DNA from: Escherichia coli
Lineage (GTDB): Bacteria; Pseudomonadota; Gammaproteobacteria; Enterobacterales; Enterobacteriaceae
Assembly: GCF_003334255.1 (NCBI RefSeq)
Contig: NZ_QOWU01000017.1
Reading direction: 5' to 3' (one strand)
Length of the DNA stretch: 64,000 nucleotides
Numbering within the stretch: the stretch's first letter is position 1; each line of letters begins with the position of its first letter. Below, one piece after another: positions 43,901 through 46,900 of this stretch. A program made the position numbers.

Positions 43901-46900
43901 AAGCGCGGGCGATCGGTTTTGATATCCATTTTAATCGCTGCCCAAGAAACGACTTTGGGTGATCGATGTCCGGTAACAAACACGTCAGGATTGCGGAAGG
44001 GACAATATGCCACCAGTCACCCTGTGCCAGCACGGGCGTCAGCTCGGCATTTTTGGCAAATACCGCACAAGCAATAGAAAAGAGAAGGTGACCTTCCGCC
44101 GTCATGATAAAACTCACTAAACTGTCGATACGTACAGTATAGGATTTTTATACAGTGCACGGAAGTGGTGACGGTGTAACTCTTTCTCTTAAATTGACGA
44201 TTAATCCGTCAGTTGAATGCAATTTCAGATAAAGAACCAGGGGCAGCGAGATCACTGCCCCTGGTCATTAACCGAGAAGGTCTTTTGCGGTGAGTTCTGT
44301 CAGCGATGAGAGTTTGACGTCTGCTAATACAAAACGTGGATCATTTTGCGCTTCTGGCGCAGGAACGACGATGGAACGCATGCGGGCTGCTTTAGAGGCG
44401 ATCATGCCATTTACCGAATCTTCCAGCGCTACGCAGGTCAGAGGGTCAACGCCCAGTTTTGCTGCGCAGTCGAGATATACTTGCGGATGCGGCTTGCTGT
44501 AAGGCAGTTTTTCGGCCGAGGCGAGGGCATCGAAACTGTCGCGTAAGTCAAACATGGTCAACACTTTTTCCAGCATATGTAGTGGTGACGCGGAGGCCAG
44601 TCCCACCAATAAACCTTGTTCTTTGCATAACGCAACGGCTTCGCGCACGCCTGGTAATAATGGACGTGTCTCTTCAACCAGTGAAATGGCACGGGCAATA
44701 ACCCGTTCTACTACTTCCTGACGGCTTGGCCCATTCCACGGTTGCCGGGCGTACCAAAGATCGACCACCATATCGATGCGTAAACCTAAGGTGTCCGGCA
44801 GCTCGTTACGACGGGAGATATCCACCCCCAGGCTTGCCATCACATCCAGTTCGGCTCGATCCCATAAAGGTTCTGAGTCGATAAGTAATCCATCCATATC
44901 AAAAATTGCAGCAAGAATCTGACGCGGGGTTGACATTACAACCTCTCCTTTAGAGCATTATGTGTAAGGTATTAAGCCGTGCTTATGATTAAGCGCCTAT
45001 CATATCGCCTTTAAAGAATGGGCGAAAACAGATATCTACAGGTAAACTAAGTGAAACGACGCGTCTTAATCAAGGAGAACTCATGACGTATCAACAAGCT
45101 GGACGCATTGCTGTTTTGAAAAGGATTTTGGGTTGGGTGATTTTTATACCTGCATTGATCTCTACATTGATTTCTTTGCTGAAATTTATGAATACCCGGC
45201 AGGAAAACAAGGAAGGCATTAATGCGGTCATGCTCGACTTTACTCATGTCATGATCGATATGATGCAGGCGAATACGCCTTTTTTGAATCTATTCTGGTA
45301 TAACTCCCCGACGCCCAATTTTAATGGTGGCGTGAACGTTATGTTCTGGGTGATTTTCATCCTGATTTTTGTCGGACTGGCGTTGCAGGATTCCGGTGCC
45401 CGGATGAGTCGCCAGGCGCGCTTCTTGCGGGAAGGTGTTGAAGATCAACTCATTCTGGAAAAAGCCAAAGGGGAAGAGGGGCTAACGCGTGAACAAATTG
45501 AGTCCCGTATTGTTGTTCCGCACCATACTATTTTCCTGCAGTTTTTCTCACTGTATATCCTGCCGGTTATTTGTATTGCTGCAGGTTATGTGTTCTTTTC
45601 TCTGCTTGGGTTTATTTAATCAAAAGGCCGCACGGAGCGGCCATTATCCTCAACCCATATCATGCTGCTAATAATCTATCCAATGACTGCTGAGCAATAA
45701 CCAAATGCTGACCGCCAAATAACCTTGCACGATTTAACAGCGTGTAGAGTTGGTAAACCGGTTGACGTTCAAGGAAATCGGCAGGTAGCGGGGATACTGA
45801 CTGATAGCCGTCATAGATTTGTGGCGGCTGTTCAGTATGCAGCGGTAACATCGCCAGGTCGCACTCTCGGTCACCCCAGTAGCAGGCCGGGTCGAAAATG
45901 TACGGGCCATCCGGACCCAGTGCACAGTTGCCGGACCATAAATCGCCGTGCAACAGAGAAGGCTGCGGTTGATGTGAGGCCAGACGCTGCTGAATATGCT
46001 CGACGATGGCGTCGATATTGCCGAAAGCGATCCCTTTTTCTGCAGCCAGTTCCAACTGCCAGCCAATCCGTTGTTCAGCAAAAAACGTTGACCAGCGACG
46101 TTGCCAGGTGTTGGGCTGTGGAGTTGTGGAGAGCGCGTTATCGAAATCAAGGCCAAATTGTGGTTGGTCGCTCCATTGATGTAAACGCGCAATTTGCTGA
46201 CCAAGAATAAATGCGCTATGCGCATCCAGCGGACGAGGTGGGAGATAATCCATCACCAGAAAACTGTAGTCACGGTCAGCGCCAACTGCCCAAACCTTAG
46301 GCACGGTGACGGTTTTACTACGCGACAGTAACTCCAGTTGGTCGGCTTCGGCGGTAAAACCGGGAAGCAGTTCCCTTTCATCACATTTGACGAAAAAATC
46401 ATGTCCTGCATAGCGCAAATGCCATGCGGCATGGACTTCTCCGCCAGGCAGTTCATTACGCAGTTCGATTTCGCCTTCACCTAACTGCTCGCTCAAAAGA
46501 CGACTGATTGCCTGCCACATGATGTCTCTCCCATGTTGTCTGCCAGATCATAAGGTTAGCGCAAGAATGCGGTGTAAAAACACGAGCTAACGCACACCAC
46601 AGACTGATTATTGCCCAAAAACCATTTATTTTCTGTTGCTATTCCATTCCTCCCAGGTCGTGATGGTGATTTCAGGATCTTTGCCGGTTGCACTTTGGGT
46701 AAGCCCCGAAACCAGTTCTCTAATTTCTTCTTCACTTTGGGTACTGATAAGTCCAAAAGTGTTAGTTCCCAGCTCATGGATATTTCCCTCATCATCCGTC
46801 ATAGTGAGCAAAAAACCGTCGCGAGTCAGGTAATTATTCAACTCGTTAATTTCAGTCAATGTATCCTCATGCAACATGACGGTTATGACATAACGGACAA

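What the first reader, a model, noticed from the sequence alone, without database searches (positions are those of the whole stretch)
44120..44157. Tandem LexA boxes, one perfect and one half-degenerate, upstream of ydjM
The gene-strand sequence TACTGTACGTATCGACAGTT is a perfect CTGT-N8-ACAG box. The adjacent CACTGTATAAAAATCCTATA keeps only the left half-site. Such paired boxes imply cooperative, tight SOS repression of a membrane hydrolase-like protein whose role in the DNA-damage response is unclear.
Basis: partly seen in the sequence, partly recalled or inferred. Interest (0 to 1): 0.35.

Follow-up and report, generated by a model that had tools for sequence, protein, structure and literature searches.

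The report
Known tandem LexA operator of ydjM
These are the two already-published LexA (SOS repressor) binding sites just upstream of the E. coli ydjM gene: real, strongly conserved, and ordinary in that they are long known, although what YdjM does after DNA damage is still unknown.

Summary
On the gene (−) strand, window 44157..44120 reads CACTGTATAAAAATCCTATACTGTACGTATCGACAGTT. This is a full CTGT-N8-ACAG box (44120-44139) and a box that keeps only its left half (44138-44157). They share 2 nt and lie 14 and 32 nt upstream of the ydjM ATG (44105).

A heterology-index matrix built from 17 published LexA boxes, none from this window, ranks the two sites 2nd and 3rd of 63,981 positions. The known cho box ranks 1st. 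About 0.16 such sites are expected per 64 kb, and no such pair appeared in 200 simulations.

The tandem layout is kept in 80 of 84 orthologous promoters across Enterobacteriaceae and Erwiniaceae.

The literature already describes it. Tandem LexA sites at ydjM are credited to Fernandez de Henestrosa et al. 2000, and several transcriptome studies show LexA-dependent induction by DNA damage.

"Perfect" and "tight" are overstated. The full box is a mid-to-weak operator (HI about 9-10) and induction is modest.

One addition of my own: the degenerate half (CCTATA) is invariant, and with the next box it forms TATACT, the best −10-like hexamer. It sits a fixed 33 nt from a conserved, unexplained GTTACAnCGTCAC block.

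Verdict: already known, low interest.

The parts
44120..44139 (-). Proximal (primary) LexA box TACTGTACGTATCGACAGTT. It has a complete CTGT-N8-ACAG core and ends 14 nt upstream of the ydjM ATG.
   Evidence: HI is 9.9, rank 2 of 63,981. CTG and CAG are invariant in 81 of 81 Enterobacteriaceae promoters, with variation only at positions the motif tolerates, and are also kept in Klebsiella, Erwinia and Pantoea.
44138..44157 (-). Distal (secondary) LexA box CACTGTATAAAAATCCTATA. Only the outer half-site (CACTGTAT, 44157..44150) fits the motif. The inner half CCTATA replaces ACAGTA and shares its last TA with the proximal box.
   Evidence: HI is 10.0, rank 3. The left half ACTGTA is kept in 78 of 81 promoters. 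It is lost in L012 and L026 and shifted 1 nt in L060 and in Pantoea L088. PMC4576408 lists it as a LexA site of b1728.
44136..44141 (-). TATACT, a −10-like hexamer (5 of 6) that spans the junction of the two boxes. Inferred core promoter element; no transcription start site data were available.
   Evidence: It is the best −10 candidate between the hxpB terminator and the ATG. CCTATACTG is invariant in all 84 promoters examined. The stricter tool scan found no full sigma-70 promoter because the −35 is poor.
44168..44180 (-). Conserved block GTTACACCGTCAC: two GTnAC motifs 8 bp apart, of unknown function. It could be a weak −35 (GTTACA), or a site for an unidentified factor.
   Evidence: The columns are invariant or nearly so in the 80-sequence alignment, while the sequence further upstream is unalignable. 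The gap to TATACT is 33 nt in 83 of 84 promoters. Six species have the perfect palindrome GTTACACCGTAAC. There is one exact copy in the window.
43515..44105 (-). ydjM coding sequence (196 aa), the regulated gene.
   Evidence: RefSeq annotation. Pfam PF04307 YdjM, E = 2.4e-35. NCBIfam NF008651 'metal-dependent hydrolase', 374 bits against a cut-off of 216.
44235..44266 (-). Terminator-like hairpin after hxpB (yniC). It marks the upstream limit of the ydjM regulatory region.
   Evidence: 14-pair stem with 9 G-C pairs, followed by a T-rich tail.

Best explanation
The 38-bp element is the SOS operator of ydjM. In undamaged cells a LexA dimer binds the complete proximal box, and a second dimer binds the distal site. 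The distal site offers one good half-site (CACTGTAT), and its binding is probably stabilised by contact with the neighbouring dimer 18 bp away. Together they cover about 38 bp immediately upstream of the start codon. This stretch includes the most likely −10 hexamer (TATACT, at the box junction) and the expected transcription start region, so RNA polymerase is excluded. After DNA damage, RecA-stimulated LexA self-cleavage empties the sites and ydjM is transcribed. Shown here: the sequence, its statistical significance and its conservation. Shown in the literature: LexA-dependent damage induction, and a report of tandem binding. Inferred: cooperativity between the two dimers, the position of the promoter, and the idea that the inner half of the distal box is degenerate because it also serves as the −10 element.
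For: The sequence sits at the stated coordinates. Using a matrix of 17 boxes from outside the window, the sites rank 2nd and 3rd of 63,981, with 0.16 expected each and no pairs in 200 simulations. The cho box in the same window ranks 1st, which serves as a positive control. In 81 Enterobacteriaceae promoters the proximal CTG and CAG are invariant, substitutions fall at tolerated positions (for example CTGT to CTGG), and the distal half-site is kept in 78 of 81. The neighbouring intergenic DNA is unalignable at this depth. The same layout occurs in Klebsiella and Erwinia. The 18-bp offset with a shared TA is identical to recN boxes 2 and 3. In recN box 3, ColE1 cea box 2 and the ydjM distal box alike, the degenerate half is the inner one next to the stronger box. 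Literature: tandem sites reported for ydjM (PMC4951493); AZT induction 2.5-fold and lexA3 dependence 8.6-fold (PMC11228462); induction over time (PMC11002266); Salmonella ydjM with two boxes at 14 and 32 bp (PMC8072944); listed in the SOS regulon (PMC6590174). TATACT is the best −10 candidate and is invariant.
Against: I could not read the primary paper (Fernandez de Henestrosa 2000), the microarray paper or the ChIP-chip paper, so binding and cooperativity rest on a secondary citation. No transcription start site was found in the two supplements I could search, and the tool's promoter scan found no complete sigma-70 promoter, so promoter overlap is inferred. The distal half-site is lost in two species and moved by 1 nt in two others while ydjM and the proximal box persist, so the second site is dispensable in some lineages. 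An 18-bp spacing puts the two dimers about 1.7 helical turns apart, not on the same face, so the geometry of any contact is unclear. My HI values come from a small matrix built for this report and differ from published ones.
Confidence: 0.9

Rival explanations
1. Only the proximal box is a working LexA operator. The distal 'box' is conserved because it is core promoter sequence (spacer plus the −10 TATACT), and its CTGT half-site contributes little or nothing to repression.
For: The right half lacks CAG entirely. CCTATA is invariant, which is more conserved than a LexA half-site would require and fits a −10 role. The half-site is lost in Citrobacter amalonaticus S646 and Intestinirhabdus, and shifted 1 nt in Leclercia NCTC13032 and Pantoea, with the rest intact. 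RegPrecise evidently lists only one site, since PMC4576408 calls the distal one 'novel'.
Against: ACTGTA is kept in 78 of 81 Enterobacteriaceae promoters and in Erwinia, at exactly 18 bp from the proximal box. A spacer would not be expected to be this conserved. The site scores as well as the proximal box with the independent matrix. A secondary source says tandem binding was reported experimentally. The same layout of outer half kept and inner half degenerate is seen at recN box 3 and cea box 2.
Confidence: 0.12
2. ydjM is co-regulated. A second, unidentified factor (or an unusual promoter architecture) acts through the conserved GTTACAnCGT(C/A)AC block upstream of the boxes, and LexA is only one input. 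This can hold alongside the best explanation.
For: The block is nearly invariant across Enterobacteriaceae and Erwiniaceae. It sits a fixed 33 nt from TATACT in 83 of 84 promoters, including Pantoea, where the distal half-site has moved. It is dyad-like and a perfect palindrome in 6 species. The −35 position for TATACT is poor and not conserved, as expected for an activator-dependent promoter. ydjM rises on TisB expression together with envelope-stress genes.
Against: No known transcription factor motif was matched; I compared only from memory, which is a lead and not a test. GTTACA could simply be a 4-of-6 −35 hexamer placed 17 bp before (C/T)ACTGT (and inspection). There are no binding or expression data.
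Confidence: 0.25
3. Chance resemblance: AT-rich promoter DNA that happens to contain CTGT and ACAG.
For: The bare pattern CTGT-N8-ACAG is expected 0.61 times per window.
Against: Full-matrix rank of 2nd and 3rd, 0.16 expected each, and no pairs in 200 simulations. Conservation across two bacterial families. Published LexA dependence.
Confidence: 0.01

Closest known systems
The ydjM LexA boxes as published (Fernandez de Henestrosa et al. 2000, cited in PMC4951493; Salmonella ydjM in PMC8072944)
   Same: It is the same locus and the same two sequences. The distances to the ATG (14 and 32 nt) equal those tabulated for Salmonella ydjM. The distal 20-mer is listed for b1728 in PMC4576408.
   Different: Nothing differs in substance. 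This report adds conservation statistics, the invariance of CCTATA/TATACT, and the upstream conserved block.
recN operator, boxes 2 and 3 (E. coli K-12)
   Same: Two 20-mers overlap by a shared TA, giving an 18-bp offset. The weaker box keeps its outer half-site and is degenerate in the inner half (TAATGG). This was measured with the same matrix.
   Different: recN has a third, strong box (HI 1.8) 22 bp upstream, and its weak box lies downstream of the stronger one. In ydjM the weak box is upstream, and both boxes are only moderate.
Colicin-type double SOS boxes (ColE1 cea promoter)
   Same: A stronger and a weaker LexA site overlap at their ends, with the inner half of the weak site degenerate. 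Cooperative binding that enhances repression is reported for colicin genes (PMC4951493 citing Gillor 2008).
   Different: The offset is 15 bp in cea against 18 bp here, so the dimers are phased differently. The cea primary box is stronger (HI 4.5).
lexA autoregulatory tandem boxes
   Same: Two LexA sites sit side by side in a promoter (PMC4951493).
   Different: The offset is 21 bp (two helical turns, same face), and both boxes have complete CTG-N10-CAG cores (HI 4.8 and 7.7).
LexA-regulated YdjM-motif gene of Staphylococcus aureus (SAOUHSC_02424 operon)
   Same: A YdjM-family membrane protein is under LexA control in a distant phylum (PMC11442139), so the link between this family and the SOS response recurs.
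   Different: It has a single Firmicutes-type box (CGAAAATATGTTCG) and a three-gene operon. I did not examine it with tools.

Membership tests
Gammaproteobacterial LexA operator (SOS box) | A 20-bp dyad TACTG(TA)5CAGTA with the near-invariant core CTG-N10-CAG | tested here: met
   The proximal box has CTGT-N8-ACAG. The distal box meets this only in its left half (CTGT present, CAG replaced by TAT), so taken alone it fails this feature.
Gammaproteobacterial LexA operator (SOS box) | A heterology index within the range of functional boxes (published searches used HI < 15) | tested here: met
   A matrix built for this report from 17 published boxes gives 9.9 and 10.0. The training boxes score 0.6-12.8 when each is left out in turn. 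Published values are 9.0 for E. coli ydjM and 9.12 and 12.85 for Salmonella.
Gammaproteobacterial LexA operator (SOS box) | Located in the promoter region of a gene, overlapping or next to core promoter elements | tested here: inconclusive
   The boxes lie 14 and 32 nt upstream of the ATG and overlap the best −10-like hexamer. No complete sigma-70 promoter was found by the scan, and no start-site data were found.
Gammaproteobacterial LexA operator (SOS box) | Conserved in orthologous promoters, with substitutions confined to positions the motif tolerates | tested here: met
   81 Enterobacteriaceae promoters plus Klebsiella, Erwinia and Pantoea.
Gammaproteobacterial LexA operator (SOS box) | LexA protein binds the site in vitro or in vivo | not testable with these tools
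   Only a secondary citation was available (PMC4951493). The primary papers are not held.
Gammaproteobacterial LexA operator (SOS box) | The downstream gene is induced by DNA damage in a way that depends on LexA cleavage | not testable with these tools
   Literature: 2.5-fold by AZT and 8.6-fold lower in lexA3; induced over time; 2.1-fold by nalidixic acid in Salmonella.
Tandem (cooperative) LexA operators: lexA, recN, colicin type | Two LexA sites within about two helical turns of each other | tested here: met
   The offset is 18 bp, identical to recN boxes 2 and 3. The known range measured here is 15-22 bp.
Tandem (cooperative) LexA operators: lexA, recN, colicin type | Measured cooperativity: the weak site is occupied only, or much better, when the strong site is occupied | not testable with these tools
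   This needs EMSA or footprint titrations with single-site mutants.
YdjM protein family (Pfam PF04307; NCBIfam NF008651) | A significant match to the family profile over most of its length | tested here: met
   PF04307: E = 2.4e-35, residues 1-158. NF008651 equivalog: 374 bits against a cut-off of 216. 'Hydrolase' is a predicted activity, not a tested one.

The most novel reading that the evidence does not exclude
The ydjM control region may be a composite element rather than a plain double operator. On this reading the inner half of the distal LexA box is degenerate because it doubles as the −10 hexamer (TATACT). The promoter would also depend on an unrecognised factor that binds the conserved dyad-like GTTACAnCGT(C/A)AC block, held exactly 33 nt upstream. 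That would give ydjM a second input, possibly envelope or membrane stress, in addition to SOS.
Probability: 0.2. Interest if true: 0.3.

Novelty: already known. Interest (0 to 1): 0.1.

Why it matters
The operator is textbook-level SOS biology and adds nothing new. It is, however, a clean positive control: a tool-free reader correctly found a real, published regulatory site. What remains open is the function of YdjM. This family of putative membrane metal-dependent hydrolases is under LexA control in Enterobacteriaceae and Erwiniaceae (shown here) and reportedly in Staphylococcus aureus. That suggests a conserved but unexplained link between DNA damage and the membrane. The invariant CCTATACT junction and the conserved upstream block give specific bases to mutate if anyone dissects this promoter.

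Tried and rejected
1. The bare-pattern statistics (CTGT-N8-ACAG, CTG-N10-CAG) were not informative. One match against 0.61 expected is weak. The apparent 29 against 13 enrichment is an artefact of dinucleotide shuffles, because CTG and CAG trinucleotide frequencies predict 31. I replaced these with a full heterology-index scan.

2. I tried to read the primary papers (Fernandez de Henestrosa 2000, Courcelle 2001, Wade 2005). None is held.

3. I looked for a mapped ydjM transcription start in the Cappable-seq supplements, in Thomason 2015 (not held) and in the Kim 2012 supplements. Nothing was found.

4. The tool's sigma-70 scan found no promoter. My relaxed scan gives TATACT with a poor −35, or GTTACA-17-(C/T)ACTGT. 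I cannot decide between them.

5. From memory I compared the upstream block with CRP, CpxR, TyrR, sigma-32 and MarA/SoxS consensus sequences. None was a convincing match, and I claim none.

6. A 15-nt identity (CTGTATAAAAATCCT) links the distal box to a site inside chbF at 36701-36715. I judged it coincidental, because both are near-consensus LexA half-sites picked out by the same matrix.

7. I did not extend beyond Erwiniaceae (Yersinia, Serratia, Vibrio). The top-80 and top-120 limits did not reach them, and the question did not justify more large scans.

Full report
**What is there.** The + strand at 44120-44157 reads aactgtcgatacgtacagtataggatttttatacagtg. On the − strand this is CACTGTATAAAAATCCTATACTGTACGTATCGACAGTT. 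It breaks down into a distal 20-mer CACTGTATAAAAATCCTATA (44157..44138) and a proximal 20-mer TACTGTACGTATCGACAGTT (44139..44120). The two share a TA, so they are 18 bp centre to centre. The proximal box ends 14 nt before an ATG at 44105. That ATG opens a 196-codon − strand gene (43515-44105), which RefSeq annotates as ydjM. A 1-kb piece around it is present in 5,424 of 5,426 complete E. coli genomes. Over the 3,501-bp ydjM region compared, the window differs from K-12 MG1655 at one base. In MG1655 coordinates the boxes are 1,810,159-178 and 1,810,177-196. The neighbours are hxpB (yniC), which lies upstream and ends in a terminator-like hairpin at 44235-44266, and tcyP (ydjN), which lies downstream.

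**Is it more than chance?** The bare pattern is not convincing. CTGT-N8-ACAG occurs once against 0.61 expected. The looser CTG-N10-CAG occurs 29 times, which looks enriched against dinucleotide shuffles (13) but is what CTG and CAG trinucleotide frequencies predict (31).

I therefore built a heterology-index matrix using the Berg-von Hippel/Lewis formula with 0.5 pseudocounts. The matrix uses 17 LexA boxes listed in Table 4 of PMC3009722, none of which lies in this window. I scored every 20-mer on both strands.
- The best three of 63,981 positions are the cho box (30815-30834, HI 7.9), the ydjM proximal box (9.9) and the ydjM distal box (10.0). The fourth scores 12.2.
- The cho box sits 12 nt upstream of the cho start codon. 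It was left out of the training set, so it serves as a positive control.
- First-order Markov simulations give 0.16 sites of this quality per 64 kb, and no pair at an 18-nt offset in 200 runs.
- Left out one at a time, the training boxes score 0.6-12.8. Both ydjM sites therefore fall in the weaker half of the functional range.
- Published values agree in order of magnitude: HI 9.0 for E. coli ydjM (PMC11228462), and 9.12 and 12.85 for the two Salmonella boxes at 14 and 32 bp from the ATG (PMC8072944).

**Conservation.** A scan of one genome per species returned 80 ydjM loci from Escherichia, Citrobacter, Salmonella, Enterobacter, Lelliottia, Leclercia, Kosakonia, Raoultella, Atlantibacter, Franconibacter, Phytobacter, Trabulsiella and others. 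All of them carry the element 13-23 nt upstream of the ATG.
- In the proximal box, TACTG and ACAG are invariant in 81 of 81. Changes fall at positions 6 (T/G, both found in genuine boxes), 8-10, 13-14 and 19-20.
- In the distal box, the outer half ACTGTA is kept in 78 of 81. It is lost in Citrobacter amalonaticus S646 (L012) and Intestinirhabdus alba (L026), and displaced 1 nt in Leclercia NCTC13032 (L060).
- Sequence further upstream is unalignable at this phylogenetic depth, so this conservation is not simply shared ancestry.
- Klebsiella and an Erwinia amylovora-type locus keep the same 18-bp tandem. A Pantoea locus keeps the proximal box but has the distal half-site (CTGG) 1 nt closer.

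**What it is.** It is the published SOS operator of ydjM.
- PMC4951493 states that tandem LexA-binding sites were experimentally reported for E. coli ydjM by Fernandez De Henestrosa et al. 2000.
- The SOS review PMC6590174 lists ydjM in the regulon.
- RNA-seq shows 2.5-fold induction by azidothymidine and 8.6-fold lower expression in lexA3 (PMC11228462).
- A time course shows induction (PMC11002266).
- Salmonella ydjM is induced 2.1-fold by nalidixic acid and is tabulated with two boxes (PMC8072944).
- PMC4576408 recovered the distal 20-mer computationally for b1728.
- I could not obtain the primary papers. Statements about in vitro binding therefore rest on the secondary citation.

**How it probably works.** LexA dimers on the two sites would cover about 38 bp directly upstream of the start codon. 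The best −10-like hexamer between the hxpB terminator and the ATG is TATACT (5 of 6; 44141..44136), which straddles the junction of the boxes. Its −35 is poor (TTCCGT, 2 of 6), which is why the stricter scan reported no promoter. An alternative promoter is GTTACA-17-(C/T)ACTGT. Either way at least one box overlaps the −10 and start region, so repression by occlusion is the natural mechanism. This step is inferred, because I found no start-site data.

Cooperativity is also inferred. Scoring other operators with the same matrix shows offsets of 21 bp for lexA, 22 and 18 bp for recN, and 15 bp for ColE1 cea. recN boxes 2 and 3 share a TA exactly as the ydjM boxes do. In recN box 3, cea box 2 and the ydjM distal box, the degenerate half is the inner one next to the stronger site. 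That fits a second dimer held partly by protein-protein contact. Cooperative enhancement of repression is reported for colicin operators (PMC4951493).

'Perfect' applies only to CTGT/ACAG, because the ACGTATCG spacer makes this a middling box. 'Tight' is not supported by the modest induction ratios. Also, three Enterobacteriaceae lineages and Pantoea have lost or shifted the second half-site.

**What I can add.** The degenerate half, CCTATA, is invariant in all 84 promoters examined. That is more conserved than the good half-site, and more than LexA recognition would demand. Together with the first bases of the proximal box it forms TATACT. This suggests the half is degenerate because it doubles as the −10 element.

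Upstream lies a conserved block, GTTACAnCGT(C/A)AC (44180..44168). It consists of two GTnAC motifs 8 bp apart and is a perfect palindrome in six species. Its distance to TATACT is 33 nt in 83 of 84 promoters, including Pantoea, where the LexA half-site between them has moved. I found no known motif that explains it. It may be a weak −35, or a site for another factor.

**The protein.** YdjM matches Pfam PF04307 (E = 2.4e-35) and the NCBIfam equivalog 'metal-dependent hydrolase'. Its role is still described as poorly characterised, and a deletion showed no change in CFU recovery after TisB induction. A YdjM-motif gene is also reported as LexA-regulated in S. aureus (PMC11442139).

**Verdict.** Novelty: already known. 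Interest is low, at 0.1.

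Noticed in passing
window 30815-30834 (− strand): CACTGGATAGATAACCAGCA is the best LexA-box score in the whole window (HI 7.9). It lies 12 nt upstream of the cho (ydjQ) start codon at 30802. This is the known SOS box of the Cho excinuclease gene, and the same 20-mer is listed in PMC3009722 Table 4.
   Followed up: partly
window 44168-44180 (− strand): A conserved block GTTACACCGTCAC lies upstream of the LexA boxes: two GTnAC motifs 8 bp apart, a perfect palindrome GTTACACCGTAAC in 6 species. It sits a fixed 33 nt from the TATACT hexamer in 83 of 84 orthologous promoters across Enterobacteriaceae and Erwiniaceae. No known motif was identified, so its function is unexplained.
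   Followed up: partly
window 44136-44143 (− strand): CCTATACT, at the junction of the two boxes, is invariant in all 84 promoters. That is more conserved than the LexA motif requires. It is the likely −10 element, and may explain why the inner half of the distal box is degenerate.
   Followed up: partly
window 36701-36715 (+ strand, inside chbF/celF): A 15-nt exact identity (CTGTATAAAAATCCT) to the ydjM distal box lies on the opposite strand. The 20-mer there scores HI 12.7. It lies inside a coding sequence and is probably coincidental.
   Followed up: no
window 45549-45568 (+ strand, inside yniB): CACTGTATATCCTGCCGGTT is the fourth-best LexA-like score (HI 12.2). It has a good left half-site only, lies near the 3' end of yniB, and is probably chance.
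   Followed up: no
L002-L081 and L088-L089, upstream of ydjM: In most other genera the gene upstream of ydjM is a short-chain dehydrogenase that ends ...VDGGWLAR*, only about 35-90 nt before the conserved promoter block. In Escherichia it is hxpB plus a terminator. The neighbourhood has therefore been rearranged while the ydjM control region was kept. tcyP (SDF family) stays downstream.
   Followed up: partly
window 44117 versus 44105: The longest ORF for ydjM starts at a GTG at 44117 (200 aa), only 2 nt after the proximal LexA box. RefSeq uses the ATG at 44105 (196 aa). The ATG is conserved in all orthologues, and the protein accession NP_416242 is at version 6.
   Followed up: no
window 41991-43382 (− strand): tcyP (ydjN) is an intact 463-codon ORF in the window. 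It is annotated as a frameshifted pseudogene in NZ_CP025842.1, one of many genomes 100% identical to the window over the 1-kb ydjM piece searched (43400-44400).
   Followed up: no
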